Source of the DNA: Lophium mytilinum
Lineage: Eukaryota
Length of the DNA stretch: 55,008 bases
Reading direction: 5' to 3'
Assembly: GCA_010093605.1 (NCBI GenBank)
Contig: MU004187.1
Span: 2,160,882 to 2,215,889, forward strand
Part shown: one piece after another, positions 21,094-46,299 of the stretch
How the letters are laid out: every line of letters starts with the position of its first letter
Position numbering within the stretch: the first letter of the stretch is position 1
Position numbers and translations under genes: made by a program
Notes under the pieces: model-generated
Told to the model about the DNA's origin: nothing
Database searches by the model: none
Seen by the model: only the letters and a program-made list of their open reading frames with translations

Positions 21094-21256
21094 CTAGGTT
21101 GCGTTATTCTTTAAAACCTAGAAATATAGAAACCTTAATTTCTTTTTATATAGCTATACTACTATACGCACACGCACCTATATAGGTGCTGCTAGCTTTA
21201 AGATTTAGCTATATAATTACTTAATTACTAACCTTAAAACTAATACGTTTTCTTTT

Positions 21257-25603: not shown

Positions 25604-25799
25604 TATTAGGAATTTCTAAATTAAGAAACGCGTAGAGAATACTAGTTACTTACGTAACCTTCTAGAAGACTACGTATTTTGCCGCTCCGCGGGCTTTACG
25701 CTACTCCGTAAAAGTTTATCCACTTCTTACGCGAAATTTGCGCGCAGGCTGCGCAGATAATTCTTAATTATAGATAATCTAGTATTATAGGCAATTATT

Positions 25800-28700
25800 A
25801 TAGTTAATAACTACTTTATAGTCCTTGTAAATATAGCTATCTACCTCCTCTATCTAACCTTCTAAAACTGCCTAATCCGCCTAGGTTGCAGATAGATAGA
25901 TAATAATGTAGATAGGGCCTTATATACTAAATGCGTAATTATTACGTATAGTAGGAAATTTAAAGTTGCACTAGTATATCTAGTTATCTCTTCTTACTAC
26001 CTCCGCTAGGGCTTTATAGTCTATAGTAACTTCGCATGCATTATAGACTTTACGCGTTATATAGATAGTAATACCTGTATATATTTCTAAGAATTACGTA
26101 ACTATTACTAACCTTAATAATTTTAATATCCTAGTAGACTATTAGAGCTAGCAACGCGTGCGCTAGACGTTTAGGCTAGGGAATAGCACGCAATATATAT
26201 ATTGCGCGTTAGATAGTAGACTATATAGTAATTTAGGACGCATCTAATTACGGTATATATATTATAAAATAGAAAGATAACGCTAAGTATAAGATAGAGC
26301 CTACTTATACCCTATTTACTAATTCTATGCTACTATTTCTTGTCCCTAATACTTTTAAGCAACTTAATAACTAGCCGCAGGCTTTCTTCTCTAGAATCCT
26401 GTGCCTTAACGCAGGCAGCTATAAACTTTTAATATTAGTCCTTATTAGATATAATTATAGTATTATTTTTATACTAGCTGCATTTATCTTTCTTTATATA
26501 GAACTGCTGCCTAAATTACATAAATAAGAGATTAAGAGGGCACTGCTTCTAGCAGTTCTTTATTTTAATACTCTTCTTAGCCTTTCTATAAATTAGAGCT
26601 AAGCGGTATAAGTTATTATTAGTAAGGGGCTCTATATTATTAATCTTATTATTCTATAGTTAATATAATTAGTATATTATGCTTTAGCTCTCTACCTTAT
26701 ATAATTACCTATACTATCTATAATATCTAATAAAGTGTCCCTAAGGGGGGGGCTAGATGGAATTAAATATAGTAAGGATAAGTACCTAGAGTTAAATAGT
26801 TATACTTTGCTCTTAATGCGCTTTATTAGCGCATGTATCTTCTTGCGTTAGTTAATAAAGTTCCGCTGCTAATCCCGCTCCTTTACTTCTATTCTCGCTA
26901 CCCTTGCGGTAAAGGCCTGTTATTGTTCTAGTATTATGTCTTTAGTTAAATCTAATACGTTATAGCGGTTGGGGTTATTATATATATTCTTATTATTATC
27001 TTCTTTATAGTTTATATACCGACCTACCCGTTTTATAATAAATTCTTGCTAGTAGGATAATAGTTAGTGCTTGCGGCGTAAGCTAAGTGCCCGCTATTAG
27101 GCGAGACATTTATTATAATTTGCTACCCTAGCTTATAGTTAGCATGGTCTTGTATAAGGGGGGCGGTAGTTAATACTAGTAGCGGCGACCCCGTAAATTA
27201 GGTTTATACGCTTCTAGCCTAAGGTATATTTACTAATAGCGTAGTAGAGGCAAGTATATATATATATAATAGTATCGCCTAAAAGGGGGTTAAAAAACTC
27301 TTTTAAGTGTCTTTATATCCCTAAGGCGTTTATAGACTATCCTGTAAAGAGTAGGTCTATAACTACTATCTAGATAGCCTTAGCTATAAAGATTACTAGT
27401 GGCCCCTATAATCTATTAGAATGCTGTCTAACGCTAGGTTAGTAACTAACCTTAGCTTAGTCTTTATCTGCCCTAAAGAGATAGTTCTAATCCTTTATTA
27501 GCATTAATGCGGTGCTAGTAATATCTAGAGTTATAGAACTAAGACTATAGCATTCTTATATAATATTATAAGCAACCTTTATTATAGTATTGCGGAAATA
27601 ACTAAAAGTATTATAAATCTAGGTTATATATTATAATTAGCTATTATATAAGGTTATAGAAGTAGGGAGAGGGTAATATACCTTCCGCGCGCAAAAAGGG
27701 TCTAGAGTAGTGGGGACATTAGCTTAAGCGTAGAATAGTTAGTCTTTATAGACGTCTGCCTATGTTTATATTAGTACTTACTAAAATATATCTAGCCTAA
27801 TACTTTTAGTCTAGGCTATAAGGTTATTACTATATTCCCTAATTATATTAGTACCTAATACTATGCTTCTAAGTATCTAGTATCTTATTTATTCTTCTAC
27901 TGCCGTATATTTTACCTCTATAGTTAGTGCTTTAGCATGCCTATCTACGCTATTCTATATCTAAATTATTTTACTGCGTTATTTTATGCTAAGGGAGCTA
28001 ATGCGGTTATAAACGGGTGTGCCTCTACCTGTGCCTAAGAAGCGGCTAGTAGGAGAGAAGAATAGTAGACTACTTAATGCAAAGATATTAGACCTAGTTA
28101 TTTAGTTAATAGCCCTGCGGGCTTCTATTCTAGCCGCTGTCTTATTTTAGACTATGGCGGTACTCTAATAGGTATTTATTAGCATATACTACTTAGTAGA
28201 GTAGCTATAATATATATATAAGCTAATCTTACGCTTAAAGTCTATTTACACGCGGAAGTTAGTATTACTAGATTAGAAGATAGGCGTGTACCTGTTCTTA
28301 TCCTCTATACCGCGTTTTCTCTTTCCGGCAAGAGATAAGGTGCGGCTGGACGGCCGAGATAATATAGTATTGCCGTCTTAGAATATTCTAGTAGTGCGTT
28401 CTCTTTTACTTATTAAGTTCTATATATTTATTATTAGTTAGCAGGCGTTAGAGTTAAGGGAGCTAGGCGCGTTACTATGTTAATTAGTTTTAAGGCAGCG
28501 CGTTTTTACTTTTTTACTATCTATAGTTATATGCGTTAGCTGTATATATATTAACGTGTACTATAGATAGGGTATATAGTATAGCATATTTAAGTTATAT
28601 AGTAAGTCCCTATTTAGGGTAGAAAGAGATAGTTTTATATTACCTTTTACTATATTTAAGTAGGTAACGTTAAGCCTTACTAAATAATAGATAGGGGGCG

Positions 28701-31700
28701 TGTAGTAAAAGAATATTCTATTTTTTAAGGTAGAGTGCGAGAATAATAACTATAAAGGGAAGTAAAGTAGATTATAATTAAGTAGCGTGGAGAGAAGGGA
28801 ATAAAGGGGGAGTAAGTCGCGCGTTTATTATAATAGAATATAATAGAGCTAGCTAGATGCGGTCTATACGCGTTAACTTAGCGTCTTTAGCTAGTTATAT
28901 GCCTCTTCTCTATCCCCCCCTTAATAAAGCCCTATTATCCTATATAATTAAACACTTCTATCTACGCAATTACCTCTTTTATTATATTGCCTTAGACTAG
29001 AGCTTGCACTTACGCACTTGCATTAACTTCTACTAATTGCCGCACGCGCGCTACTACCTTCCGCTGTTATTTCTAGATGGCATTTTCTACACTATTAGAA
29101 TAGTAGTTAGTTAAGAGATTATAGACTTTGCATTCTATATTATTAGATAGATGGCTAGCTAAGTTAGAGGCCCTAATAGAGGTATTAATATCGCAACGCG
29201 CAGCTGTCCCCTTATCGCTAACTTTATCTCTAGTTAGGCGACCTACTTAGGCGTAAATAACCCGCTAGCTATCTCCTCTAGCTATAGTATATGTCCCTTT
29301 TTTATATTATTAATAATAAACGCCTCTGCCTTTACTAACTAAATTGCGTAACCTTAAGCTATTACATTCTTCTCTCTCTCGGCCTAAAATACTCTCTTTA
29401 CTACTATTTAGGCCTCCTTTCTATAATTCCGGCCCTCTATTAGTCGCCACGCTATAAGCAGTTATATACTATATTATAGGGTACTCCTCTATAGTAAAGA
29501 GGTCTCTAGATAGAAGAATAGAAGGGCAGTCTACTAGTAGTAAATTCCCCCCCCGTAGGATCTATATACCTGGTTAGAACGTTTAGCCGTGCGGCTATAC
29601 TTCTAGTTCTAATAATAGCTATAGTTTAGATAACTCTATACTGCCTATGCGTAGGGATATTAAGCTATCTATATTCTAGTCTAGTAAAATAGTATAAGGT
29701 TATAATAAGGCCCCGCCTTAGAGTAGTATAGTCCTAGTCTAGTTCCCTTAGTAAGGCGGGCTGTAGAATAGTCTAATTATAAATTAGGTTAGCTAGATAT
29801 ATAGACTCTTGCGCTATTTAAGTTCTCTATCTTTTATAGTTCCGCACTCTTATCTCTTATATAACTCTTATATTCTTTTTAACTTTTTCTATAGCTTTAA
29901 TCTCTTACTTATTTATCTTATTGCGCAGGCGTTTATAACTAGTAGAGGCTAATATAGGTATAGGTAGAAGGATAGTATAGTGCTAGCTAGAGTAGATAGG
30001 TATAGAAGTGTTGTCTATCTATGTTAGCTATATTAATTAAAATTATTGCATGTATCTAATATACTATTTAGTTAAGGCTTAATAATTAGGGTAATATAGT
30101 CTAGTTCTCTTAATAAACTCTAATATACTATTACTATATACTAGTCTACCTTATTCTTAACTAGAAACTTAAGATTATCCGCAATATAGTAATATATAGT
30201 TTCGCGTTCTATATTAAGACTAAATATTATATTTAACCTAGTAACAAGTATACTAAATTTAGGGGCTGGCATTACTAGCATACTCTTTAGTAGCGTGGGT
30301 AGTGCAAGTTTATATACTAGTATAATGCGGGCGGCCTTACTACCTAGCCGCTTTACTAATATTAACTTTATTTCTATATACGCTAAACTACGGTAGCATT
30401 TAGGGTGCGGCGAAGTTCTATTTTATTTAGTAGGCGGAGTGTCTATAGAATTAGAATAATAAGACGCGTTAATATAATCTTATCTTTTCTTATTATAGTT
30501 GTATCGCTGTGCAAGTTTTAATATCTACTTATATTCTTCTTTAAGTAGAATATATAAAAGCATTTTAGGAAACTTCTTTATAATGTCTATTATTATAGAT
30601 TATACTATCCCCCTAATTATCTTTAAGTAGAGGGATCCGCCTAGCAGGTCTACTAACCTTATCTTAGTCTCTATCGCGGTATATAGCGTATTGTATTTAT
30701 AGGCGCTAATATTAAGGCCCTATATAAGCTTATTTCTAGAGTCCGGCTTAAGGTTATTAGGTATTAGGGACTAGCCTTATTTATCTAACAATATAATAGT
30801 TTAACAATTCTTAGAATATAGAAGGGGTAGAAAAGGTAAAGTTAGAGTTAGTTTATATACGTATTTAGATAACAGAGTGCTAAGACTAGACTCTTATCGC
30901 GTCTGCGTAACTAAATCGGCTACTTTAGTAGTAACTATTTTATAGTAATTAATAGGATACCTATACTGCCTCTTCTCTTAAGAAGGAACTAAAGCCCCTT
31001 CGCATTAATAGTAACCCAGTATTTATTAAGTTATTAGTGTAAGATCTAGATAGTTTAGTATTAGGCTGAAAATTCTATATTTTATACTGCTGCCTAATAT
31101 ATTTATGCACTTAAGTATTAGAGATAATTATAAATAATGCTCTATTATTAACTATTACTATATAACGGCCCGGTTTATTTATCTAAATATATACTTAGGC
31201 GGTGCTCCCTTTTTTATAATTATTAATATTATTATAGGGCGCTATTATAATGCTTTAGGGCTTTAGCTAATTATATATAGTATAGGGATACTAATATTAT
31301 AAGAGTATAGGCCTACACGCCTATTTTAGGATACTCTTATTTAATTTATATAATAGCTAGGACTAGGGATATATACTTTCTCTAGCGACTTAGATGTATT
31401 AAGAAGCGTAATAAATATAATAGTGTTTTAGAGTATTTTCTAAATTAAGTAGAAAGGTTGCAAATAGATAGCGTCTAAATTAGCTATAGAGTAGCATGTG
31501 AATGTATTATACTATCTTAAAACTAACCTAACTTATCTCTACGTCTAATTAGCTGTGGTGTTGGTAGTATATTAAAATATAGGTAGCTAGAAAGAGCTTA
31601 GTATTAGTAAGTGTATACTTTTCTACCCGTTTTCTTTTAGCTAGTATATATATACAGCACTAAATTATACTACTATAGGCCTATAGTATACTCTAATTTA

Positions 31701-31900
31701 TAGGCTGCTCTATTTAAATCTCTTTATTAGGAATATAAGTAAGATTAGATGCATACTAGCTACTAATATCCTATAGTCTAGATTAGAAGGGTAGAATAGA
31801 GGGTTCTTGCAACCTTTCTATACCTTATAACGTGCGAGAATATTACTAATAATATATGCGGGCCTATAGAGCATTAGCGCCGCTGTATAGATATTTACCT
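25800..31900 (-). pseudogene. Several RIP-degraded cargo ORFs of unknown function, apparently on the minus strand
   Basis: De-RIP minus-strand reading gives long protein-like stretches, e.g. ..AFAARVARMEVKERDRQRNFIDQRKKIHALMKRIKSKV* ending ~26801 and ..LGGEAARIMLVHELALPTLLKS.. at ~30350. Gene number and boundaries are not resolved. Confidence 0.4.
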
Positions 31901-32149
31901 ATATAATGCTATAGTTTATATTACTAATACTTAGGCCTTAAATTACATTTAAGGCTTATACTGCTAATACCTAAGCCTTGCGGTAAGTATATAGTTAAGT
32001 AGATTATATTAATATTAAAAACGGGCAGTCTATAGTAGACCTGCTATAGATATAGTATACTTATTAACGCGGTAATTGCAGGTGTATTATAGAAGTAGAA
32101 GTTAGAATAGTTTATTTTATAATATCTACTATAGAACTATATGCACTAT

Positions 32150-35100
32150 ATAATTAGTGCATTTAGTAGTTACCTTAGTACTAATAGTTTCTTAGTTTTT
32201 CTTCTTTTTTAGTATACTTTATATAACCTTATATATAAACTTATTATTATTAACCGCACGGGACTAAGCTAGCGTATCTACCGGGTTGTTACCCCCTATA
32301 TAGGCAAGAATAATGCTGCATATTCTATTAGACCTCTAGTTCTTCTACTATACTTTAGATATAATCTATATCTTAAGGCCGGATGCGGTCTATAGCTCTA
32401 TAACTATTACGCACGTATATTAAAAAGTAAAGTTAGAGCCTTCTACTCCTCTAGTCTTTCGGTTTGCGACTAGAATATTAACGGCCGCTAGATTGTCTTA
32501 ATTACGCTTAAAGCTAGTATTAAATTACTTCTATTACTTAACTATTAGCAATAAATATAACTATGCAAGCTTTTTAGTTAGCATAGTCTTTATAATTATC
32601 TAGTATTAATTATATTAGTTTATTAGATAATAATTGCCAATTATAGATAGAGATAGGTAGCAACTTATAATGCAGATAACTAAATTAACTATAGGCTTCT
32701 TGCTAACAATTAGTATTTTCTTCTTCTTAGCTTAAATGTATTAAACTATGCTCCTAATCTTCTTTAGCTTCCCTAAATTAGCTAGTAGGTCGGTATACTA
32801 TTTAGCGAGAGTACTTTCTAAGTCCGTGTAATCTATCTAGCCCGCATTTTTAATATCTTCTAGAGTAAAGGTTAGGTTACTTATTAAGCTAAGCTCTTTC
32901 TATTACATCTTTAACTTAGCTAGCCTAGGAATTAATGCAAAAATCTAGGGCAGCCTTCTCTTACCTAAGCCTGTTAGAAAGGCGCCTAGGCTAAAGGAAG
33001 GCGGCGGCTTATTAATTGCTGCTCTATGCCTTAGCTATTCTTTATACTCTTCTTTAAGGTCTGCGTATCTCTCTCTAATAACTATATAGTACTCCTTAAT
33101 AAAGGGTTTAAAGTAGTTAAGTATACTAACTATTACCTGCCGTATAATATAGAGCGGCATATTCCCTAAGGGAAGGCCGTCTAGGCTAAGGCTTATTAGC
33201 GTTCTACAGATGCTTATAGCTGTAATTATATCTAACACTCTCTAGAGATGCCTAGATAATTTAGAATTATTCTATAGTTGCCGCTCTTTCTTTATTTTTA
33301 AGGCAAGGTAGTAACCTCTAGCCCCTATAAGGTCTCCTTAATTAATACGCCGGAGGGTAGGGCCTTAATAAAGAATATTAAACTTATCCCCTTTATCTAT
33401 ATCCTCTTTCTCTAACTCCTTATCTAGAAGAGTATTATCCGGGTTGTCTTTAATATTAGCGTTTAAGTTAGTTAGGTCTACTATCTAAGTTAGCGTCTAT
33501 AAACCTCTATATAGCATAACTATTAAATATAATAGAGTTTTAGGGCCGCGGAGAAAAGAAGTCCCGCTATAGAATAAGCCTCCGGGGTAGCTATATAGAT
33601 TAGCAGCCTTATTAAACCCTCTTAAGTCCTAGCCCCAATAAACCTAATTAAGCGCACGGTTAATATTTGCCTATTTGCGCGTAGTTAGATAGAATGCATG
33701 CTAATACTGCATAGACTTAATATAGCTAAAAGCTGTAATATATAGAGATATATTATTAAATTCTAGGTAAAACTTATTAAAAAAAACGGCCCTATATATA
33801 TACGTGGGGGTTACTCTATTACTATATAATAGGTTATAGAATATTATAAAGGTCTCTAGTAAGTTTAAATTCTTATTATATTTTTTATTAAAGGTCTCCG
33901 CGCTTATAATAATAAGGTAGGTTTTTACTTTTAGATTTAGCTTATACTATACCCGACTGTTTATTTCTTAGTGGATAGGCCTAAGGTTCTTCTAGTCTTT
34001 AGAAGTAAGGTTACCCTCTATAATGCTTCTATATACACGCTAGATATAAAGTCTTCCGCTAGGGACCTTAAAATTCTTATTCTTATATTTAATATCTAGC
34101 TAGTATTTCGCCTTCTTATAGGTCTAATTTAGTAGACTCTTCTTAGTAAGCTAAATAACGCAGCCTTTAACGCTGCTAGAATGTAGAGTATTAGTACTAG
34201 CCTCTCTAGTATAAGTAGTAAATGCTATTAATATTTATAGAGTTTTTCCTATTCTAGGGGGGTCTATAAGAATTAGCCTACGCGCCCTACTAGTAAGACC
34301 TTAGATAATACTATATATCCCGGCCACCTAGTATAGGGCCGCACGCATCTTTAGGTTAGTAGTTATTTCTAGTAGCTTAAAGGTTGCGTTACTAGAAAAA
34401 TTCCTATATATTAGAGGTAAACTAAAAAACTATAGCACCTTCTTAAATGCTGCTATTAAGATATTCTTTATAGAGCTTAATATTAGGGCTATTATAGCAG
34501 TAATATTAATAGTATCTACCTTCTCTATATTGGCTGTAATTATCTTATTTATATCTATAGAGGGTCTAGTTTTACTAAGACTATATATATTAAATTTAAG
34601 CGTAGCTATAATATTAATACTACTAATTACTATATCCCCTGCAACTTAGGTATTACTAGGGATAGTCTAGCTGCTTTCTATAGCAACTATAAGCGTATAG
34701 AGTTGTTTTTAGGCGGTTAGGTACTAAGTAGTTCTAGGCCTAAGCGCTCTAAGCTGCTATATAACCTTATTATAGATAATACTAGGCTAAATAGAATTAC
34801 GCATTAACTTAGTATATAGCTAGATAATATTAAGCATCTATTAGAGTAATTGCGCTTTCTTCTCTACTTATAGCTTTTATACCTTCTTCTCTACTAGTAG
34901 TTTCTACTTTCTTTATTTCTCTTACTCCGCTATCTCTTCTAGCTATTTCTGCCTCTTTGCTTTCTCTTTAGTTACGGTCTTAGCTAGCTCTCTTTCCTTC
35001 TATTCTATCTACTTTTTGGCCTTCTCCGCTATTACTATATCTACTAGCTCTCTCTCCTTTATCTCTTTCTTCTTTATCTCTTTCTCCTTTATTTCTTTCT

Positions 35101-36650
35101 TTTTTCTTTCTTTCTCTACTTTTACTATTTCTGCCAGCGCTTTCTCTACTAGCGCTTTCTCCGCCAGCTCTTTCTCCGCCAACTCTTTCTCCTTCTTCTC
35201 TTTCTCTTTCTTTTCTCTCTCTGCTTTTGCTGTTTCTACCAGCTCTTTCTTCTTTTTTTCTTTTTCTTCTTTTACTATATCTACTAGCTGTTTCTACTTC
35301 TTTCCTTTATTCTATTCTGTGGTAGAATTAACTCTATCTATATTAGCTATATATATATATAGACTTATAGTTAAGTTAATAATTATTTTATCTAGAGTAT
35401 TAGCGGCGGTAGGTTTAGGTAGACCCTTAGCCGCGGCAGCCTTAGGCTTGCTATAGCGGGGGCGTTTCTTAGCCGGGCGGATACTAGGGGGCGAGGACTT
35501 AAGAAAGTGCAGACCTAGCTATGCATTAGTTAGTAGTAATATTTAATAATTAATAATAATTAATATATATCTAGTCTTAAGTTTAGATATTATCTCTCTA
35601 ATGTTAAGGCCCTTTACTATAAAACTAAGTACTATCTCTTTAGGTATACTCTTTATTTTCTCTAATAGTGTAGTTAGATAGAAGTTATTCTCTATTAACT
35701 TCTAGGTTCTATTAACTATAATAATGTGCTCTAGAGGGTTAAAGTCTATAAAAGTTCTATTAATAGCTTCTAGAAACTTTATAAAGCTATAGTCTTCTAG
35801 CTCTAGGCCTTTACTACTAGACCTTGCAAGATAGAGAGTAAAAAGGCGTCTAGTACTTTCCCGCTATAGCAGCTAGTATATTGTGGCGAGGACTGCGTGC
35901 AATAGCCGGGGCTTAAATAGAGTATTTCGGGCAGTAATATCTAGGGATTTTATTAGAGAGCTAAGGCCTGCTAATATAACTAACTTTATAGATAAGGCTA
36001 ACTTAAACCGCTTCCGCTTTTTATTACTTTTAATAATACTGCCCCGCATCTTATATTTCTTATAGACTTTATACTAGATTAATATCTAATACGCTTACTT
36101 CTACTTAGCTAATATAGAAGACTCCTTAAATATATAACTCTATATATCTATAAAAAGTATATATATTTTAGACTAAGTATCTAAGTAGGTATTATTCTTG
36201 CTATAGTTGTTTTAGCCTAGTTATAAGAGATATTTTACCTGTAGGTATACTTTAGAGTTCTCTATTAGTATAAATAAGTTAGCTTCTATCTAGCGCTATA
36301 TCTTAGAAGCTAGACCTAAGCCGGCTATAATATTTATTTAACTTAAGTAGCCTTTAGAGTTCTTAGTAAAATTAAATGCCGCCTTACTCTGCAAAGATAT
36401 ATTGCGTAGTAGGTCTACTAGGAATATTATAGTCTTCCCCTAAGTAGGTCTAGAGCGTTAGCGGCTACTATAGGGAGGCCGGCGGCTGCGGCGGTTATCT
36501 AGCTTATCTAGCTCTAAATTACTATTGTAGTCTACTTAACTAGAGTCTATACTTAATAACTATTTATCCGGGTTAAACTTCTTATTGTTTTAATTATTAG
36601 GGAGGCGTTATTAGTAACTAGTGCGTTAACCTAATTTTTTAGCTATATTA
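32150..36650 (-). pseudogene. Divergent SNF2-family (SF2) ATPase/helicase with N-terminal Lys/Glu-rich coiled coil, RIP-inactivated cargo gene
   Basis: Literal minus-strand translation at 34335-34230 is Y*VAGIYSII*GLTSRARRLILIDPPRIGKTL*I, de-RIP HQVAG...GLILADPPGMGKTLQ (Q motif + Walker A). Further motifs: FDEAA ~33615, FCSGT ~33570, GKLEKIRSIV....KKKMLIVS ~32775-32700 (motif IV), ILVANRKTGGVEGSNFT ~32480-32430 (motif V), EIQIISRVWRKNQ ~32375-32337 (motif VI). KEKE/AEKEL tract at 34850-35310. Intron-like acceptors near 35520 and 32560. Confidence 0.72.
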
Positions 36651-37049
36651 GGCGAATAAGATAAGAAGTTAGGGTGTAAGGAAGGTAGATAGAAGGGGGC
36701 AGGGTTAGTAGATAGAATAGCGTTGTGCGGTAATATAGGCGAGGGCGGGCGGGAGGCTAATAATATTAGATAAACGGTGATAGTAAGTAATAAGTAAGGT
36801 AGTTACTTACCTATAAAGTTATAATAGTAGACGCTACTTATAGTATAATTAACCTTAGGATTGCGCGCGTTAAAAAATAAGGCGACTATAGTAGAAGATA
36901 TATAAATCCGCGCGCGCTAGTAATAGAAGTAGCTACTCTTAGTTATACTTTTAAATAGGTATAACGTCTATTAAAGAAGTACTTATAGAGCGGTACTAGA
37001 AATACAGTAAGCGCAGGTAAGCCTAAGGCGTAGAGAAGGAAGTTGGCGT

Positions 37050-37140
37050 ATAAGGGAGGAAGGAGAAGGAGGAGAGAAAGAGAGAAGAGAGAGATGGAGG
37101 AGGAGGAGGATGAGGGAGGAAAGATAGGTAAGAATAGTAG
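37050..37140 (-). promoter_or_regulatory. Purine-rich tract (CT-rich on the minus strand) in the putative divergent promoter region of the giant element
   Basis: GGAGGAAGGAGAAGGAGGAGAGAAAGAGAGAAGAGAGAG. CT-rich tracts are common near fungal transcription starts. It lies upstream of the SNF2-like gene, with a minus-strand GTAAGT donor at ~36811. Confidence 0.35.
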
Positions 37141-37349
37141 ATAAGAATTAGAATTAAAAGGCTAGATGGAAGGTAAAGTTTAAAGTAGCGCATAATTAAG
37201 TGCGTAATTAGTAAACAGGCTATATTATAATATAATAGAAGTAAAGAGTTATATAGCTTAAAAAACTCTACTATCTAATAATTAGTAATAATTAGCCTCT
37301 ACCTTAATATTTATCTATACCTATTAGCTTTTAGTAACACTTAATAGAT

Positions 37350-40300
37350 TAGTAATAACTTCTACCTAATATTGCCTTCTACTTGCCTAGGTTAGTTAAT
37401 ATAGAAAGAAAGGCTAATTTCTATATATAGGTGCCTCCCCCTATTATTTAAGTTAGCGTTGTAAGCTCTACTAGATTAGCGGCTAATAGGTTAAGGTCCT
37501 TAGAATAGAAAGAGAAGTTGGCCGCAGCTATCTAAGGAGGTACTGTGCTGCTTATTATTGCCTAAGCTGCTGCGCGCCTCTCTACCTCTAATAGTAGCTT
37601 ATTATCTACTAAAGTTACGCCCTATAAGCTAGCAGGTAGCAGCACTAATTTATATATCTTTTTACTATCTACCCTTCTTATAAGCGTTACTAATTTAGCT
37701 TATACCGCGGGATAGCTTACTTACCTACTTTCTCCTTTACTAAATAAGTACCCTTACTCTCTAGCCCCTCTACTAGCGCGCACACCGCCTCTATACAGAG
37801 AACGCCCACTTTAACCTACCCGGGAAGACTAGCGTTACCTACCTACGTATTTATTATACTTCTTATCTACTTACTTGCCCCCGCTAGCGCTAGGCTAACT
37901 ATAGTCCGCATTTAACTAGCCTATATATCTCTCTCTCTTATAGCCCTCCGCTACTCTAGGCGGCGCTTTCTAGAGGCTCTACTTAGTAGTTCCCGCTCTC
38001 TTTCTATCTCTTGCAGCTCGCGCTCTAATAACTAGGTTAGCGCGCTTCTTTTTACGGATTTAGCCTTTCTAGAAGTAGTAGAATTACGTAGTTATATCTT
38101 ATAGGCTACGCCTCTAGAATATATATAGGTTAGTAACGCTTAGATTTACCTATTATAGTATGCTATAAGGCTAACCCTTAAGTATAGCTTAAAATTAGTA
38201 GAGGCAGGTTAAAAGTAGATAAGAAAGATAATAGAGTAATACTTAGATATTTAGGGGACTAATTAACTGCTATATAGTATCTGTATTCTACTAGGTAATT
38301 TAGCTATTAAATGCGCGTTTAGATAAAAGCCTCTTAATATAACTAATATCTTACTAGATATAATAGTGCTTAGTTCTAATCTAATTATTAGCCCGATATT
38401 ATACCGGCCTTAACCCTAACTCTCTAGAAGGTAGCTACTACTATAGTAACTTATGCCTTCTATAATAATAGCTAATATACTACCGGTGTATATTAGACTA
38501 AAGCTCTAAACTCTTCTAATAACCTACTCGCTATTAAATTACGGCCTCTTCTTTAACCCCAACTATTTTGTTTAGAATATAAGCGTATCTATCTATACTA
38601 ATACTAACTAACTATTTAAATATATTAGGCCTAACAGTAATATATAGTTTAAAATAGTAAAGGCTAATATACTTTAAATAGAGACTAAGTAGTAAGTCTA
38701 GCTTATGCGCGGTAGTATCTAGACTTAATAGACTAATCTATATATAGAGAGGTTACTACTAAGCCCTTCTTCTAACTCTACTCTAAGGGCGCCGACTAAT
38801 TCTTTAATCTTCTATATAGCATACGCGAAATCTTAGTTATAAGGGATAAATTAAATAAACTATAGAAAGCGGAACTTAAGAAGATACTCGCTACTTAAAA
38901 GACTATAATATAGTCTACTAATAAGTCTAAGTCTATAGTAACCTTTAAAAAGAAATATAGCAACCTTTAAAAGCGCTAGAGATATACTAAATACTAACTT
39001 AATTCTATAGTAAATATTCTAATCTTAGAAGGCTAAATAGGGGTAATAGACGCCTACGCCCTTACTATTATTCTAATAACTATGCCTGATACTACCTATA
39101 TAGTAAAGCTTACTAAGGCGCTATAAGACTAAGAGCTACTAAAGCAAGTTATAATTAAGTGCTAATTTAGAATCTCTACTTAGATGCGCCCTAGCCTATC
39201 TACTAATATACCGGGTGCATAATAGTGCACTTGCTTTTATTATTTTAATCTAGATACGCGTAAACTATAAAAGGTAGCCTCTATAAATAAGCCTAAGTAC
39301 TACTATAACCTTACTATTAAGGGCACCCTTAAGGTTCTTAAGATTCTAGAAGAACACCTACCGCCCTTATTTAGAGGCTAGATAATTAGGTGTAATACTA
39401 ACGCAACCGCTAGTAAAGAGCTAGCAGAGGTCTCTATCTTCCTCGCCGTTATTCTAACCTAACCGGCCACCCCCGCTAAGCTAGTAGAACCCCGCGAGAG
39501 GTTAATATAGGACGCCGTTTACTACGTAAAGGTCTAAGATAAGCATAAGTCTTATATTAGTCTACCTTAGAATCTATATTTTAAATAGTATATATCTATT
39601 ATCTTGCATATAATCTATAGAGAATTAGCTAATAGAAGTCCGGCCTTATAAATATAGCTTATATTTATAGTTCTAGTGTTTAGATTACTATATGCTAATA
39701 AGCTATACTAGATTGTATTCTATAGCTAAGTAGACTCTCCGCTTAATACTATCTATACTAATAAGAAGTTTAAGGCTATAATAATAGATAGTTTTACCTA
39801 GATATACCTAGTTATATCTACGCTAGATACTCTAGAGAAGTTAGCGTCTATAGAAGTATAAGCTAGAGAATTTTACGGCCTTAAGTAGCCTCTAAATCTA
39901 CTATAAACTACACCCCTACTTCTAGAGTTATAGAAGGCTAAACTTCTTACCTAAACTAATCTACTATTTATTAGAATTATAGAGCACCTACTAGTGCCCC
40001 GGCGCAACTACTATATCTACTCTTCTATTAATACTTTAAGCAAGTATATAGACCTAGATTATATTCTCTATTTTAAAGTTACTACTTCTAATATAGAGGA
40101 GTAAAGTCTAGATAATAAGCGCCGGTATACTACTTAAATAGTATATAAAAACATCGCCCAGCGTACTATACTAGTTAACTTATTATAGAAATAGGTTAAC
40201 GCCTAGACTTATAAGAAGTTTTATAAGGTATTATATAATATAGCTACTAAAATACTTATAGTATTACCTATAATACTAAATATAGTAAATATAATAAATA

Positions 40301-42000
40301 ATATAGTAGAGGGCTTTATAGACGCAACTAAGCCCCTTTATATATATCTAGATTAGCACCGGGTTCTAATAATAGAGGATTATATACTGCTAGAGGGACT
40401 ATATGCTATTAATATTTCCTACTAAGGCTGCTCTAACTAGTTTCTATCCCCGTTTAAGTTAGCACGGGTTACAGTTAAGCAAGTTTATAACTTTAAGATA
40501 ACTAGTAGACCGGGAGGGCATAGTAAATATAATATTAAGAATATCCTTAGGTACTATACTAAGGTACTAGACGAGTTTAAGGCTGGCCGGGCTAAGGCTA
40601 GTAATGGTGCGGAGGGGGATAAATAGAATACTGCTAAAGTCTACTATATTAATAGTCTAACCTTCTATATAGACTGCTATACGGCTAGAGGTTTTACTAT
40701 ATTTATCTAAGAACTAATTACTAATAGCACTATTAACTATTATAAAGTAAGTAGCTACCTAGCGGTTAGCTATTACTACTCCGCCTTTAGCTATAACGGA
40801 AGCAATAACTTCTACTCTAAGTATAATACTAGCGAAGATAATAATACTAACTAAGACAGTACCTATACGCTATACTCGGGCGACAATAAATTAATACGCC
40901 GGCGGCTAACTATCTTAGATTACATCTATAAGGCTATTCTAGACCTTAAGAACTGCGCTAGGCTTCTTAATAGAGATAGTAATAGTGGTAATAACTTAAA
41001 CGCGCAAGATAATTGCGGACTATAGAATCTGCGTAAAGATAAGCTTAGCTAGAGAATACAGGACTATATAGCTAAAGTGTTGGCTAAAATATAGTAAGTA
41101 GTAGAGGGCCACTATAATTAGGAATAATTAATAATAATTAAAAATAATTAGATATTCTGCGGGCGGCCCGGGTAGACTATAGTATAAGAGTTGCTGCTGG
41201 CACTAGTTATAGGCGCCGGCGACTTAGACGGGAGGCAGTATCCCTGCTACTAATTTAGAGGTGTTAGTAATCTAGAAGTCTTCTATACCTATATACTTAA
41301 TTTAAAATACTAAGTTATTATTATATTTACTATAGGTTATATATATAAATACTAGATAGTAATATATATAGCCTATAAGCTAATATCTTCCTAGGGCTAA
41401 ATATCTACTAGCCTAATTTCTAGCACTATTAATAAGGGCTTAATAATTCTTTAGCTTCCCTATTAACCTAGTACGGAATAGGGCCTAGAGTTTCGCCGGG
41501 GTATTATTATAAAAGTAGCTAAAGAACTTAACCTACTTTTAACGGCGCGGTATAGACTATTAAAGAAAGGCTTAAGCACTCTTATAATCTATAAGAAGAT
41601 AGTCCTCCGCCCTTACTACTTACTAGTTCTTATAAGTTGTCTACTCTCTATCTACCTTATTCTTATTAAGTGTAGTTATTGCTAACGTGTATACCGCTAA
41701 TTCTACCGCGCGCAAGAGACTTAAGCGGCCGAATTAGTAATATTATAAAACTCCCTGCCTAACTAGCGCCTTCTAGCTATTATCTAATTTTGCGCCAGCT
41801 AAGAGAGACGCGGAGTTTAACCTAGGCTACTTAATGCGCATCTAATATTACTATCTTGTAGCCGTCCTATAACTAGCACTTACCCTAGCCGCCGTCTTCT
41901 TAATAACGCCGGCACTCTTAGTAGATACCCGTTAACTCTATTCTACTAGACTAGCAATACATCGCCGCCCAGCGCTCGCCTTGCGGAAGGGAGTAACGCG
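37350..42000 (+). pseudogene. RIP-degraded cargo ORFs of unknown function, including one reading frame of about 600 codons (~39180-41100)
   Basis: The plus-strand frame reads as protein when TAA/TAG are reverted (..LEILEEHLPPLFGG..AEVSIFLAVIL..VLDEFEAGRAEAGDGAEGDE..RRRLTILDYIHEAILDLENCARLL..). No family recognised. Confidence 0.45.
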
Positions 42001-42334
42001 CTTAAACTTAGTGTCTTCTTCTATATTACCTAGATAGCACTCGCCTAGAGTTAAGAGTTCTTTACTATAGCTAGTAACTGCGGCAGGAAGTTAGATACTA
42101 GAAATTAGTAAGAGGTAATACTTACTTTTAACACACGCTGTACTATTAGAACTAGGGAAACTAGATATAACTACTAGTACGCGCTTAAAACTACGCCCAC
42201 TATAAAGGTTTATGCTAGCTATAAAGGATATAGAAATAATAGAAATAATTACGTACGGGCTTTAGGGTTATAGTTTAAGGGAGTAAGCCGTAGTCTTTAA
42301 TATGTAGATGCGTTAAGGGTCTAGGCTAATAAAA

Positions 42335-45300
42335 TAGCCCGCCCCCTATTAGAATGCGTTGCGTGCTATTAAAAAATAATAAGTACTATATACTAGCCTA
42401 TAATCTAATATAATCTATAATAATTACTTGCAATCTATAAGTTTCTATATAGGGCTAACTAAATTTAACTAGAAATAGAGTATATACTTTCTACTAAATA
42501 TAAATACTGCTATAAGTTATTCTAAATACTTAGCGCCCTAAATAAATATATACTATGCTATAAAAAGCTCCTTAAGATACTATAGCGGGTTCCGCTTGCT
42601 AATACTAGAACTACTAGATCCGTAATCTAGTCTTGCATGCTCCGCGTTATTTAGATAATAGACGGGATATTATTTAGAACGCCTAGATTGCTACTAGTAA
42701 GTCTACCCCTACTAGCTAACCCCTGCAATAAGATAGAGTATAAGATAAATAAAATAGAGCTATATATCTCTAGTAAACTAGAAGAGTACTAGAGTCCGCC
42801 TTTTATAAATAGAGGCCCTATAAGCTTAATATATAATAACCCGCCGGAGGCTACTAAATTCTACGTTCTATACTAATAAGGCCGACTAATAATATTATCT
42901 ATATTATTACTGTAAGAGGAAGTATATCCCTCTACTAAATTAGGTATGCCTGTAGGGGCGTCTATTAGACAGGCTAATACTAGATAGTAGATGTAAGTAT
43001 TATTAGGGACTGCTATCCCCCCCGCCCGTAAAGGCGGTATTAGAGCTTACTAACTAGTTACTCTATTATAGGGACTAATCCCCCTTCTATCTATTTTAAT
43101 TAGCGTTTAACTATGCTTTTATATTATAGCTTTAGTAGATTAGCTGCACTAAGAATAATATTAACCTGCTATTTAATAACATCTACCTTAAGAGTATATT
43201 CTCTAACTCTCTTATATTTACATTAGGCGATTTATAGAATAGTAAACTAGAGGAAATTAGATATAGTATTAGTAATACTAACTACATAGTAGAGATGCTG
43301 CATTTCCTAAGTAAAAAATAAAGCTTAAGCGGAGAGTGGCATCTAGTATACTACTTTAATATAATAGCAGCTATATTATTTCTAATTAGACACCGCCCTT
43401 TCTATAATTACCTTATATTTATACCGGTTTAAGTCCGCAATATAGAAGGCCGGTAGGTATATACTAAGTTGTATACATTAGACTAGTAGTAGTAGACTTA
43501 GTTAAAGCTTCCAGCGGGGGCTATAGTAATACCTATCTTACTCTCCGCAGATAAGATATAGCTTACCTAATATTACGGCGATAAGAGCGCATAGCTAGTC
43601 TATCTAACTATTAGTAATCTAGATAGGACTACGCGGCGCTTAAATATATTACCTGGCACCCTACTACTAGGCTTTATACTAAGCACGGCGGATAAAGAAG
43701 ACTACCTAAAGTATTAGCTATACTATAGCTCTTTAGGCTACATTCTTAGGTATTAGTAAAATTCTTACTAATACTAAGCGGTTTTCTAATATAAAATAAG
43801 CTATTATAGAATATACTACTAACGGAATTATACTAGAATGCAGGGATAGTAAGAATTAAAGGTGCTATCTAGTATTATACAGAATTATAGCCGATTATAA
43901 AGAATAGAGCCTACTTATAGGTATTAAATTTAGAAAACACTGCACTATATACTAGGTACTATTGCATTAACGCGAAGACCTAGAGACTAAATACGCCGCA
44001 AGGTCTTATTACTTAACTATTATTTAGATTAAATAGCAATGTAATAATAAAGAGTATTTAAAACTTCTACTAAATAAAGCGCTATATAATATAGAGGCTA
44101 TAGAGCTTAATATAGAGTTATATATATATTCTATAAATAACTTTACCTAGAAACACCCCTATACTAATATCTACTAGATAATAATAATAGATATTCTATA
44201 CTAACTATTTACGGGCGTTATTTACAACCTTATTAAATGGGTCTAGCTACTAGTAGCGGAGGTCTACACCCCAGCAATTAGAAGAAAAGATGCCCGTGTT
44301 CTAATAGAAAATAAGAGCGGCTTAACCTAGCTAGACGAGCGATTTAAGGACGTGCCGCCTTTCCCGGGTCTATCTACGTTTAATAAGAAGAATTTTAGTA
44401 AACTTTTATAGTATACTAGCTCTAAATAAAAGTCTATAGCCCGCTAGCTTATAGTAGTAGTAGCACTGCTGCTAGAAGTAAAGGCGCTAAACGCGCTCTA
44501 GTTCGTCTATATAATGCTTAATTTTACTATTCTAGTGCAGTATAAGATGCATAATAAGGCCACGCTAGAGTATATAGAGCTAGTAATAGCTTAAATTAAT
44601 ATATATAAGTTAGAATTTAGAATATTTAGACCTAGAGATAAGGATGGAAACTACGCCTTCTACTATTTAAAATTCTATGTTATGCAGCACTACGTCGATT
44701 TTATATAGAAATTTGGCGCCATTAATAGCTATAATACCGGCTTAAATAGTAAAGTAAAATACTAATACCTAGTTAAATTACGGTATTAGTTAATAAACTA
44801 TAAGGACTTTCTACCCTAGATCTACTAATTAAACTAGAGACTTATAAATAACTAGGCTATAAACGATATACTAAACTACTAATATTACTATTCTTAACCG
44901 GCAGTAATAAGAGATATACTAATATAATAGATAATAGTATTAGAAAGCATTAATATCTTAAACTTTAAATAGCCTAGATATAATAATTTCTATAAAGGCT
45001 AAATAGTATACTATCTAAAAGTAAGTATTAAGTATATAGCTAATATAAGCCGGGAGCTAGACTTTATAGCCGCCGCCGCCGTATTTATTTAAGAAGAGAG
45101 GCGCAAGATCTAAGGCTAATATACTAAGCCTAGCAGTCTAGATATATTAGACCCTAATCTATTCTAGGTTAGCTACCTCTAGCTTAAGTTTTACGCTAGT
45201 ATTTTGTGTTAGAAGCAATTAGGTGCTAGCAAGGACCTAGAAAGCCTTATAAAAGAAAATCTACAGTATAACCCTAAGTAGTAGAACTAAGAATAGCAAC

Positions 45301-45878
45301 GCAACTATTTATAGGTGTAAGAGTATGGCTTAGACTATACTAAAAATAGAAAGACGCGCGTTAGTATTACTAATAGAAGGTTAGTAGGGTAGCTGCAATT
45401 TATAGTAACTATTATAGACCCTATTCTAAAGAGTAAAGATACCTTATAGGCGGCACACTCTAGAGTTTTTATTTACCTTCTAGCGCTAATTAATAACGGG
45501 AAGCTATATTATGTCTATGGCCTAGTAGAGGTAGCTTCTTAGACTTCTAATAATAGCCGCCGCTAATAAAAGCTAGAAGTATATTAATTCTATCTACTAC
45601 TATAAGTCCTCTAAAGTGTATATATTATACTAGCTACCTTTAGCCTAGACTTTACCCATTTTTTTATTAATAACTATATTAACTAGGATTAATATAATAT
45701 ACTCTATATAGAAGACTAGGAGATAGAGGCGCAAGAGGTAATAAGGTAGTACCGGCTTAGCGGTTGCGCTAAAGAGATTAAAGCTGCCCTAAGAGTTAAA
45801 GACGCAGCGGAGATTTTAGTAAAGCGCGTAAGGGTAAGAGCACTTACTAACGCCTTTCTCCCGCAACTAAGCCGGTAA
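42335..45878 (+). pseudogene. Plavaka-family transposase, RIP-inactivated
   Basis: De-RIP motifs in the expected order: ELYTSDWWWQTQLKLPAGATVIPILLSADKTQLT..GDKSAWPVYLTIGNLDRTTRR (43466-43640), RCYPVLCGIIADYEEQSLLTGIKSGKHCTMCQVP (43860-43960), DILHQLFTGV (~44190), KFHVMQHYVDFI.KFGAIDGYDT (44670-44740), FFINNYIDWDQYNILY (~45660-45708). The core is confident. Start and stop are approximate. Confidence 0.9.
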
Positions 45879-46299
45879 ACACTAAGAAGTAGTATAGCGA
45901 AGAGGGGCTATAGCACTAGCAAGCAACGGCGTAAATAGAAATAAGGCCGCAAGAAAAGACGTCCTTAATTTTTCCCTACTATTAAGAGATAATTAAGCAT
46001 TATTTAGCTTTATTAACCTCTAAGGCTAATTAATATAAGATAATAACTGCGTACTTTCCTATATAATTTCTATAATACTAGGTAACGCTAGTATACCCTG
46101 CTAGCGCTGCCTTACTTTACTTTTTAAAATTATACGTTGCTACCTTTACCTGTTTCCCTTTACTAATAACGGCCGCCTAATTAAATTTACTAGCTACTTA
46201 AACTTACTACCCTCTAATTACTTTCTTTCCTTAATACTTTGCAGTAATTAACCCTAAATAGCGCCTATAGTAAGTATATTATCTATACTAGAGGTTCTA

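What the first reader, a model, noticed from the sequence alone, without database searches (positions are those of the whole stretch)
32150..36650. The giant transposon carries its own divergent SNF2-family ATPase
Seen: on the minus strand the literal translation retains LIL.DPP.IGKTL, and downstream GKL.KIRSIV..KKKILIVS, ILVANRKT.GVEGSNFT and a motif-VI-like segment, in the correct order over ~2.1 kb. A KE-rich coiled coil precedes them (its antisense is the Ser/Phe ORF 35016-35456 in the track). Known: this order matches SNF2 motifs I, IV, V and VI (GILADEMGLGKTLQ; SGKL..KVLIFSQ; STKAGGVGLNLT; QA..R..R.GQ). Inference: a chromatin-remodeller-like motor inside a Plavaka element could aid integration into or excision from heterochromatin, or counter silencing. 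Motifs II and III look degenerate (FDEAA, CSGT) and closely spaced, suggesting a TE-specific lineage rather than a recently captured host gene.
Basis: partly seen in the sequence, partly recalled or inferred. Interest (0 to 1): 0.85.

Follow-up and report, generated by a model that had tools for sequence, protein, structure and literature searches.

The report
Dead SNF2-like gene beside Plavaka transposase
A fungal repeat that has been mutated to death by the genome's own defence (RIP) still carries the recognisable skeleton of an unusual SNF2-type motor protein gene next to a Plavaka transposase, hinting that this transposon family once carried its own chromatin-type motor.

Summary
The quoted motif strings are real and lie in one minus-strand frame that runs from about 37.1 to 32.3 kb. 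That frame has 86 stops in 1,500 codons; the other two frames have 186 and 202. The DNA is heavily RIP-mutated. Every direct search of the motor part failed (Pfam, phmmer on 1.8 billion proteins, PDB, word-indexed search). A RIP-aware ancestral profile compared with a 67-sequence SNF2 motor alignment gave three collinear hits: motifs I-Ia (P=2.5e-4), IV (P=0.011) and V (weak). The chain score is 88.3 against a maximum of 47.4 in 88 decoys. Canonical SNF2 motors RIPed in silico stayed detectable in 30 of 30 cases, so the ancestor was already very divergent. A Plavaka transposase relic (PF18759, E about 1e-11 to 1e-13) lies 6-7 kb away, divergently oriented, in the same moderately RIPed 26-kb block. 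Gene models from other copies show that the unit is multi-copy. Element termini were not found, so whether the gene is cargo of that transposon remains unproven, and the gene is dead. Verdict: the SNF2-like relic is supported, the link to Plavaka is plausible, and the function is only inferred.

The parts
32300..37099 (-). RIP-inactivated SNF2-like ORF relic in a single frame, at least about 1,500 codons
   Evidence: Lowest stop density of all frames. There are 86 stops (54 TAG, 32 TAA) in 1,500 codons from 36799 to 32300, against 186 and 202 in the other two minus frames.
34085..34318 (-). SNF2 motif I-Ia block (relic residues 45-122), with Walker A GKTL* at 34249-34238 and SLLN* at 34138-34127
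   Evidence: hhalign against the SNF2 core alignment: score 41.9, P=2.5e-4. None of 93 natural decoys exceeds 23.9. With the P-loop columns removed, residues 89-122 still align in register: 17.8, P=0.049, decoy maximum 17.6 of 46.
33878..33904 (-). Ib-like block SAETF followed by FNKKY, a candidate RIPed DExH box (motif II); uncertain
   Evidence: Codon posteriors allow F-D-E-x-H. A weak hhalign hit aligns YLIIISAETF to the SNF2 'VLiTTYE' block: 18.0, P=0.34. Not significant.
33806..33835 (-). Candidate motif III (NLLYSNRVTP, possibly from ..LL.S.GATP); uncertain
   Evidence: Codon posteriors. hhalign did not align it.
32699..32896 (-). SNF2 motif IV block (relic residues 519-584; GKLKK...KKILIVS)
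   Evidence: hhalign 29.3, P=0.011 against the whole core. 29.0, P=0.0033 against the lobe-2-only template, decoy maximum 20.5 of 46.
32384..32521 (-). SNF2 motif V block (relic residues 644-689; ..TRGVEGSNFTF*..EL*TAS)
   Evidence: hhalign 17.1-20.9 against the whole core, depending on RIP parameters. 19.5, P=0.082 against the lobe-2 template. Collinear with the other blocks but weak on its own.
32336..32368 (-). Motif-VI-like *IISKV**KN*, with the spacing of Q..(G/D)R..R.GQ
   Evidence: Codon posteriors: positions 0, 4, 7 and 10 are reachable from Q, R, R and Q by C>T or G>A. A G at position 9 has posterior below 0.03, and residue 698 (TCT) cannot be traced back to G or D. Evidence is at pattern level only.
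34907..35353 (-). KE-rich, low-complexity (coiled-coil-like) stretch N-terminal to the motor
   Evidence: Windows with at least 50% K+E. This was the only part that hit anything in phmmer.
35012..37911 (-). Stretch collinear with gene models called on other copies of the repeat (P0001, P0002)
   Evidence: tblastn of P0001 and P0002 on the window. The differences are RIP-type. NCBI names P0001 as a hypothetical protein of Lophium mytilinum.
43319..44243 (+). Plavaka transposase domain relic, with a frame switch near 43.8 kb
   Evidence: PF18759 profile positions 37-214 at 43319-43813 (E=3.1e-13) and 191-325 at 43791-44243 (E=5.5e-11; 6.9e-12).
26001..53000 (.). Block of uniform, moderate RIP intensity that holds both relics, flanked by more severely RIPed Gypsy-type DNA
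   Evidence: (CpA+TpG)/(ApC+GpT) is 0.17-0.49 in 26-53 kb, against 0.04-0.20 in 17-26 kb and 0.04-0.14 in 53-55 kb.

Best explanation
The region holds the corpse of a long (at least about 1,500 codons), intron-poor gene for a very divergent SNF2-type ATPase. Its layout is an N-terminal region, a KE-rich coiled-coil-like stretch, and then a two-lobed motor. The gene belonged to a multi-copy repeat and was therefore destroyed by repeat-induced point mutation (RIP). The repeat is most likely a large Plavaka (CMC/EnSpm-like) DNA transposon. The Plavaka transposase relic lies 6-7 kb from the gene's 5' end and points the other way, so the ATPase would have been an accessory gene. Shown: the RIP damage, the single reading frame, the SNF2-like motor, the divergence from canonical SNF2, the multi-copy state, and the Plavaka transposase nearby within the same RIP-intensity block. 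Inferred: that both genes lie within one transposon. Also inferred: that the intact protein worked as a DNA-translocating remodeller for the element, either opening or protecting its chromatin against silencing (as proposed for the TET/JBP, methylase-SET and 2OG-oxygenase accessory genes of other Plavaka elements) or helping transposase access and gap repair. The copy in this window cannot work.
For: RIP: TpA/ApT is 1.4-2.0 across 16-55 kb and (CpA+TpG)/(ApC+GpT) is 0.06-0.39 from 17.5 kb on. Frame: 86 stops against 186 and 202 in the other frames. SNF2: three collinear profile-profile hits to a 67-sequence SNF2 motor alignment, 41.9 (P=2.5e-4), 29.3 (P=0.011) and 17.1. None of 93 natural decoys scores above 23.9. 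Chain score is 88.3 against a maximum of 47.4 in 47 natural decoys, 40.7 in 40 shuffles and 15.1 for the reversed relic. The motif I-Ia and IV blocks recur under all 5 other RIP parameter sets and the motif V block under 4 of them, and the raw X-translation gives the same three blocks (28.1, 24.9, 19.1). The signal persists without the P-loop and in lobe 2 alone. The 19 non-SNF2 E. coli SF2 helicase rows and a 5-sequence DEAD-box alignment give top hits of 15-25, none significant. Divergence: 0 Pfam families for the relic, while the RIPed Plavaka domain and Gypsy RT are found, and 30 of 30 canonical SNF2 motors RIPed in silico are still detected. Multi-copy: P0001 and P0002 map collinearly to 37911-35012 with RIP-type differences. 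Linkage: PF18759 lies at 43319-44243; the RIP indices are similar (0.40 for the motor, 0.33 for Plavaka, 0.05 for the Gypsy RT); and there is a uniform block from 26 to 53 kb. Precedent: giant Plavaka elements with chromatin or DNA-modifying accessory genes are described in 10.1101/2025.02.11.637652 (passages), PMC11244446 (passages) and PMC12730594 (passages).
Against: No search with the unmodified translation finds any helicase: Pfam on whole frames and on 240-residue tiles at E<=10, phmmer on 1.8 billion representatives, PDB at E<=10, and the word-indexed search. The RIP-aware relic profile against single SNF2 sequences is also not significant (best 2.1 bits). Motifs II and III did not align and are too close together, so the ancestral protein may have lacked a canonical DExH box or the copy may carry a deletion. 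Motifs V and VI are weak on their own. The control profiles for other helicase families were shallow (single sequences, or 5 sequences), so specificity for SNF2 over other SF2 families rests mainly on the SNF2-specific Ia and IV blocks. No terminal inverted repeats or target-site duplications were found. The one bracketing 24-bp inverted match (31792 and 44818) is at chance level and decays at once. An inverted Gypsy-family fragment at about 48.8 kb shows that the block is not pure. The known other-copy evidence covers only 35.0-37.9 kb, not the motor and not the transposase. The simulated sequences were members of the HMM's training alignment, which inflates their scores.
Confidence: 0.5

Rival explanations
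1. The relic is an SNF2-like gene of a multi-copy repeat, but it is not part of the Plavaka element. It would belong to another, unidentified mobile element or to a duplicated genome segment that merely lies next to a Plavaka relic in a transposon graveyard.
For: The AT-rich block is demonstrably a mosaic. It holds a Gypsy pol relic and repeated Gypsy fragments at 19.6-27.1 kb, 54.5-55.0 kb and, inverted, at about 48.8 kb. No termini enclosing both genes were found. An uncharacterised 3-kb low-stop tract on the + strand (39-42 kb, 0 Pfam families) lies between the two genes. No paper in the searched library links Plavaka to SNF2.
Against: The two relics have nearly the same RIP intensity, which differs from that of the Gypsy DNA. 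They are 6-7 kb apart and divergently oriented, with no recognisable foreign TE domain between them in the frames scanned (1 of 6 frames for 38.4-42.6 kb and 1 of 6 for 36.3-37.5 kb). The other copy is collinear for 1.1 kb upstream of the gene, towards the transposase. Giant Plavaka elements with accessory genes are a known pattern.
Confidence: 0.3
2. The relic encodes a P-loop NTPase or SF2 helicase that is not a member of the SNF2 family. The SNF2 resemblance would come from generic helicase motifs plus the freedom that RIP-aware reading allows.
For: Pfam SNF2-rel_dom and Helicase_C give no hit, and neither does an in-house SNF2 core HMM. The most probable de-RIPed Walker A reads DPPGTGKT, which also resembles SF1 and AAA+ P-loops (recalled). 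Motif II was not recovered. The control profiles of other families were shallow.
Against: The best alignment includes GKT-L-Q and the SNF2-specific Ia block. The motif IV block (gKl...KvLIFSq) is also SNF2-specific and on its own exceeds all decoys. All blocks are collinear. The decoys had the same RIP-aware freedom. The raw translation gives the same three blocks. The gap between the aligned Ia and IV blocks is long (relic residues 122 to 519), as in SNF2 proteins.
Confidence: 0.13
3. There is no gene relic. The motifs and the low stop count are chance features of AT-rich RIPed DNA.
For: All direct database searches of the motor part were negative.
Against: Stops are depleted more than twofold in one frame over 4.5 kb. 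None of 93 decoys approaches the top score and none of 88 the chain score. Gene models from other copies are conserved in the same frame.
Confidence: 0.03

Closest known systems
SNF2 (Swi2/Snf2) family ATPases, Pfam SNF2-rel_dom PF00176 plus Helicase_C PF00271; the eukaryotic CHD/Mi-2-type motors were the best-matching reference subset
   Same: The motifs come in the same order and register: I (GKT-L-Q), Ia (SL..W..E), IV (gKl...KvLIvS) and V (GG.EG.NL), plus a motif-VI-like pattern. The spacer between the lobes is long. The eukaryotic subset scores 41.8 and 28.3, against 22.9 for the prokaryotic long-SNF2 subset.
   Different: The relic is invisible to Pfam and to an SNF2 core HMM, although RIP alone would not hide a canonical member. 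Motifs II and III are non-canonical or partly deleted and are closely spaced. There is a long N-terminal region with a KE-rich stretch and no recognisable accessory domain. The subfamily could not be assigned, because only CHD-type and prokaryotic references were to hand.
Giant Plavaka DNA transposons with accessory genes: red algae PAG1-3 (10.1101/2025.02.11.637652), Amoebidium Plavaka giant repeats (PMC11244446), and fungal TET/JBP-carrying Plavaka (PMC12730594)
   Same: A Plavaka transposase (PF18759) lies next to a large intron-poor gene whose predicted activity acts on DNA or chromatin. The unit is multi-copy, and the surrounding block is tens of kb long.
   Different: The published accessory genes are a TET/JBP dioxygenase, a DNA methylase-SET protein, a ParB-like 2OG oxygenase and tyrosine recombinases. 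No SNF2-type ATPase is reported in the passages read or found by the search 'Plavaka'+'SNF2'. The host here is a RIP-active ascomycete lineage, as the named copy comes from a Dothideomycete. The termini were not found, so it is unproven that the gene belongs to the element.
E. coli RapA, a bacterial SNF2-family ATPase used as the alignment frame
   Same: The same motor motifs. The EG.NF pattern in motif V resembles RapA's GSEGRNFQF.
   Different: As a single sequence RapA gives only weak hits (21.9 and 15.9), and the prokaryotic subset fits worse than the eukaryotic one.

Membership tests
SNF2 family ATPase | Significant match to the curated family models (Pfam SNF2-rel_dom PF00176 and Helicase_C PF00271) | tested here: not met
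   0 families for three whole minus frames at E<=1 and for 11 tiles of 240 residues at E<=10. No hit to an in-house SNF2 core HMM. RIP damage is a partial excuse only: 30 of 30 canonical motors RIPed in silico stayed detectable.
SNF2 family ATPase | Profile-level similarity to the SNF2 motor beyond what matched decoys reach | tested here: met
   Top hit 41.9 (P=2.5e-4) against a decoy maximum of 23.9 (n=93). Chain 88.3 against decoy maxima of 47.4 (n=47 natural), 40.7 (n=40 shuffles) and 15.1 (reversed).
SNF2 family ATPase | Helicase motifs I, Ia, II, III, IV, V and VI present in order | tested here: inconclusive
   I-Ia and IV align significantly. V is weak. VI is matched at pattern level only. 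II and III were not aligned; the candidates are FNKKY and RVTP.
SNF2 family ATPase | SNF2-specific sequence blocks that other SF2 helicases lack (GKT.Q, Ia P.SL..W..E, IV gKl..L......KvLIFSQ) | tested here: met
   The Ia block aligns in register with the P-loop removed (17.8, P=0.049). The IV block scores 29.0 (P=0.0033) on the lobe-2 template. Both are above all 46 decoys. That these blocks are SNF2-specific is established knowledge, recalled, and is visible in the consensus.
SNF2 family ATPase | DNA-dependent ATPase and translocase activity | not testable with these tools
   The copy is a pseudogene with 86 in-frame stops. An intact homologue was not retrievable.
Plavaka DNA transposon (CMC/EnSpm-like) | Plavaka-type DDE transposase domain (PF18759) | tested here: met
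   43319-43813 (profile 37-214, E=3.1e-13, 50.1 bits) and 43791-44243 (profile 191-325, E=5.5e-11, 42.7 bits), against a cut-off of 26.3 bits.
Plavaka DNA transposon (CMC/EnSpm-like) | Termini 5'-TGT..ACA-3' or 5'-CATCA..TGATG-3' with 2-3 bp target-site duplications (PMC12730594, passages) | tested here: inconclusive
   No inverted repeats at 72 of 80 matches in transition-blind space. Short candidates are at chance level (about 10 expected).
Plavaka DNA transposon (CMC/EnSpm-like) | The SNF2-like gene lies between the element's termini and moves with the transposase | not testable with these tools
Only circumstantial support exists: proximity, divergent orientation, equal RIP intensity, and multi-copy collinearity over 35.0-37.9 kb.

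The most novel reading that the evidence does not exclude
Plavaka transposons of RIP-active ascomycetes carried their own transposon-specific lineage of SNF2-like chromatin motors. It would be a new class of transposon accessory gene, one that acts on nucleosomes and not on DNA bases, used to keep the element accessible or unsilenced. It would parallel, but be mechanistically distinct from, the TET/JBP, methylase-SET and 2OG-oxygenase genes of other Plavaka elements.
Probability: 0.3. Interest if true: 0.75.

Novelty: new variant of a known kind. Interest (0 to 1): 0.45.

Why it matters
Accessory genes of DNA transposons are rare. Those known for Plavaka and related elements modify DNA bases or histones and are thought to fight host silencing. 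An ATP-driven remodeller carried by a transposon would add a different weapon to that arms race, and intact relatives in fungi with weaker RIP would make it testable. On the method side, the case shows that a gene erased for standard searches by RIP can still be recognised with a mutation-aware profile and matched decoys. As it stands, though, the copy is dead, its link to the transposase is circumstantial, and the family assignment rests on profile-profile evidence only.

Tried and rejected
1. Direct searches with the X-read translation found nothing for the motor part. These were Pfam on three whole minus frames and on 240-residue tiles, phmmer on 1.8 billion representatives (which hit only the KE-rich stretch), PDB phmmer at E<=10 (only antibody and channel noise), and the word-indexed search of the motor region (none of 7,999 candidates).
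2. The RIP-aware relic HMM against 140 single target sequences reached at most 2.1 bits, with no separation of SNF2 from other helicases. I replaced it with a profile-profile comparison.
3. No whole genome is held for the window, and no earlier scan notes exist.
4. De-RIPing from other copies through sequencing runs did not work. Copy number, element boundaries and a consensus therefore remain open.
The protein atlas does not take X-read translations.
6. A Pfam scan of all + frames of the AT-rich block failed because too much would have been printed. I scanned selected low-stop tracts instead, so most frames of 27-32 kb and 45-54 kb were never scanned.
7. Terminal inverted repeats were not found. 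The transition-blind scan with 80-nt windows found none. The 20-mer seeded scan gave 10 candidates of at least 24 nt, about the number expected by chance. The pair that brackets both genes (31792 and 44818) decays to random within 24 nt and was rejected.
8. Stop-codon type as evidence was rejected. TGA is absent from all three frames because RIP removes TpG everywhere.
9. Reading the direct repeats at 19.6-21.1 and 25.6-27.1 kb as LTRs was rejected. The second repeat starts exactly where the RT/RNase H match ends, so they are more likely repeated pol fragments.
10. The original Plavaka paper (Iyer et al. 2014) is not held. Its text and supplements might mention associated ATPases. bioRxiv supplements were not consulted.


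Full report
Setting. The window has an ordinary flank of about 50% GC (1-16 kb) with fungal housekeeping genes: two SRR1-domain genes, Vps54 and a GH92 glycosidase. It then drops sharply to 25-39% GC up to its end. The AT-rich part carries the signature of repeat-induced point mutation (RIP): TpA/ApT is 1.4-2.0, and (CpA+TpG)/(ApC+GpT) is 0.06-0.39 from 17.5 kb on, against 1.1-1.5 in the flank. No whole genome is held for the window, and the scan has no earlier notes on it.

The observation. GKTL lies at 34249-34238, GKLKK...ILIVS at 32773-32702, GVEGSNF at 32449-32429 and *IISKV**KN* at 32368-32336. The KE-rich stretch is at 35353-34907, and its antisense is the Ser/Phe-rich ORF 34845-35456. 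That frame has the fewest stops of all six from about 37.1 to 32.3 kb. It has 86 stops in the 1,500 codons from 36799 to 32300, against 186 and 202 in the other two minus frames. All stops are TAG or TAA, but TGA is missing from every frame, so stop type is not evidence for the frame. 'FDEAA' and 'CSGT' are not literal strings. The nearest readings are FNKKY and YSNRVTP, which RIP-type changes could derive from F-D-E-x-H and from a ..S.GATP-like motif III.

Direct searches fail. Reading stops as X, Pfam finds nothing in the three minus frames or in eleven overlapping 240-residue tiles at E<=10. phmmer against 1.8 billion representatives finds only three proteins, all on the KE-rich stretch. 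PDB sequences at E<=10 give only noise. The word-indexed search of the motor part gives nothing. As a sensitivity control, Pfam does find other RIPed relics in the same block: a Ty3/Gypsy reverse transcriptase (E=1.3e-16) with RNase H (E=2.1e-11) at about 24.75-25.6 kb, and a Plavaka transposase.

A RIP-aware test. RIP makes only C>T and G>A changes, mostly at CpA/TpG. For each codon of the motor part (window 34450-32300, 717 codons) I computed the posterior over ancestral amino acids. The prior was the codon usage of the intact flank genes. I turned the posterior into a sampled pseudo-alignment. As reference I took E. coli RapA and 120 long SNF2 proteins retrieved with its motor. I reduced them to a 67-sequence alignment of the motor, which shows the canonical motifs. 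The profile against single sequences was not informative (best 2.1 bits). The profile-profile comparison (hhalign) gave three hits that are collinear and in the canonical order. Relic residues 45-122 align to motifs I-Ia (score 41.9, P=2.5e-4). Residues 519-584 align to motif IV (29.3, P=0.011). Residues 668-689 align to motif V (17.1, P=0.37).

Controls for that test. Ninety-three natural decoys were treated identically. They were every other frame and 2,151-nt segment of the AT-rich block, leaving out segments that touch the N run and segments in the relic's own frame that overlap 32.0-36.9 kb. They reached at most 23.9, with a median of 15.7. The collinear chain score is 88.3. By comparison the maximum is 47.4 in 47 natural decoys (every second one of the 93), 40.7 in 40 column shuffles, and 15.1 for the reversed relic. 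The motif I-Ia and IV blocks recur under all five other RIP parameter sets and the motif V block under four of them (chain 59.6-95.7). The raw X-translation gives the same three blocks more weakly (28.1, 24.9, 19.1). With the P-loop columns removed from the template, residues 89-122 still align in register (17.8, P=0.049; maximum of 46 decoys 17.6). Against lobe 2 alone, motif IV scores 29.0 (P=0.0033) and motif V 19.5 (P=0.082), with a decoy maximum of 20.5. The 19 non-SNF2 E. coli SF2 helicase rows (two of the helicases appear twice) and a 5-sequence DEAD-box alignment give top hits of 15-25, none significant. These control profiles are shallow, which is the main weakness of the specificity argument. 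The eukaryotic CHD-type subset of the references fits (41.8 and 28.3) better than the prokaryotic subset (22.9).

What is odd about the motor. Motifs II and III did not align. A weak hit places YLIIISAETF on the SNF2 'VLiTTYE' block that normally precedes motif II. From there it is only about 29 residues to the TP of the candidate motif III, against roughly 50 in the references. So either a stretch containing the canonical DExH box is missing, or FNKKY (possibly from F-D-E-x-H) is a displaced motif II. The motif-VI-like segment has the right spacing, and RIP-reachable ancestors exist at the Q, R, R and Q positions. A G at position 9 has posterior below 0.03, and residue 698 (TCT) cannot be traced back to G or D. 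A calibration shows that RIP alone does not explain the failure of ordinary searches. Thirty eukaryotic SNF2 motors were back-translated with the window's codon usage and RIPed in silico to GC 0.24-0.31. All were still detected by an SNF2 core HMM at 172-421 bits, while the real relic (GC 0.335) gave no hit. The caveat is that these sequences were in the HMM's training alignment. The ancestor was therefore already far from canonical SNF2 proteins, which argues against a recently captured host remodeller.

Repeat status. The two strongest phmmer hits are short gene models called on other copies of the same sequence. The exons of P0001 map collinearly to the window's minus strand from 37911 to 35012, and P0002 maps to 35659-35012. 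The differences are of RIP type (G/S, A/T, R/K, E/K, P/L/S). NCBI names P0001 as a hypothetical protein of Lophium mytilinum, a Dothideomycete. So the unit is multi-copy, which is also what RIP requires. The known collinearity covers the 5' half of the gene and 1.1 kb upstream, not the motor.

The Plavaka link. PF18759 (Plavaka transposase) matches the + strand at 43319-43813 (profile positions 37-214, E=3.1e-13) and, in the next frame, at 43791-44243 (profile 191-325, E=5.5e-11). That is 6-7 kb beyond the 5' end of the SNF2-like frame, in divergent orientation. Both relics have similar RIP intensity (index 0.40 and 0.33), unlike the Gypsy RT (0.05). Both lie in one block of uniform, moderate RIP (26-53 kb, index 0.17-0.49) flanked by severely RIPed Gypsy-type DNA (0.04-0.20). 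This fits one large unit but does not prove it. No terminal inverted repeats were found in transition-blind space. Short candidates occur at the chance rate, and the one pair that brackets both genes (31792 and 44818, 24 nt) decays at once. A Gypsy-family fragment lies inverted at about 48.8 kb. A 3-kb low-stop tract on the + strand (39-42 kb) between the two genes has no Pfam hit.

Literature. In the passages I read, giant Plavaka elements of 17-19 kb in red algae carry three accessory genes. These include a DNA methylase-SET protein and a ParB-like 2OG oxygenase. The authors state that in basidiomycetes only a TET/JBP gene is known as a Plavaka accessory gene (10.1101/2025.02.11.637652). Amoebidium has Plavaka-flanked giant repeats of up to 50 kb with intron-poor genes (PMC11244446). 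Fungal TET/JBP-carrying Plavaka families and their termini are described in PMC12730594. A full-text search for 'Plavaka' together with 'SNF2' found one paper, in which SNF2 is mentioned in an unrelated context. 'Plavaka' with 'helicase' found ten papers, of which eight were listed. I opened three of them (PMC12730594, PMC13519894, PMC5751038), and none links the two in the passages read. The original Plavaka paper is not held, so I cannot exclude a mention there.

Conclusion. The region is the RIP-killed relic of a long gene for a very divergent SNF2-like ATPase that belonged to a multi-copy repeat (confidence about 0.8 for SNF2-like and about 0.85 for multi-copy). That it was an accessory gene of the neighbouring Plavaka transposon is the most economical reading (about 0.5-0.55), but it is not demonstrated. 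A role in opening or protecting the element's chromatin is an inference by analogy with other Plavaka accessory genes. The present copy cannot function.

Noticed in passing
window 22801-25800 (+), 19623-21096, 25604-27113, 54466-54997 and about 48783-48945: A Ty3/Gypsy pol relic: RVT_1 E=1.3e-16 and RT_RNaseH_2 E=2.1e-11 at about 24.75-25.6 kb. Fragments of the same family are repeated directly three times and once inverted. These copies are RIPed far more severely (index 0.04-0.20) than the block that holds the SNF2-like and Plavaka relics.
   Followed up: partly
window 39001-42000 (+): A 3-kb tract with low stop density in one + frame, between the SNF2-like gene and the Plavaka domain. It has no Pfam hit as an X-read translation. 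It could be the N-terminal part of the transposase gene or a further accessory gene.
   Followed up: partly
window 27901-29100 (-) and 29700-31499 (-): Two more low-stop tracts downstream of the SNF2-like relic with no Pfam hit. Their content is unknown.
   Followed up: partly
window 31792-31815 and 44795-44818: A 24-nt inverted match (14 identities, 10 transitions, 0 transversions) that brackets both the SNF2-like relic and the Plavaka domain, 13 kb apart. About 10 such matches are expected by chance in the space searched, and it does not extend, so it is only a lead for when other copies can be compared.
   Followed up: yes
window about 16000: A very sharp isochore boundary. GC falls from 0.48 to 0.29 within 1 kb, directly after the GH92 gene, so the RIPed block abuts intact housekeeping genes with no visible leakage in the 1-kb bins.
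   Followed up: no
window 3621-4553 and 4608-5537 (-): Two adjacent paralogous SRR1-domain ORFs in tandem (E=8.8e-22 and 7.2e-16) in the GC-normal flank. As a tandem duplicate that has apparently escaped RIP, they may be diverged enough or too short to trigger it.
   Followed up: no
window 18938-18947: A run of 10 N (an assembly gap) inside the most severely RIPed part, next to short tandem and inverted repeats at 18.7-19.3 kb.
   Followed up: no
window 43791-43813: The two halves of the Plavaka domain lie in different frames and overlap by about 23 profile positions. This points to a short intron or an indel in the transposase relic.
   Followed up: no
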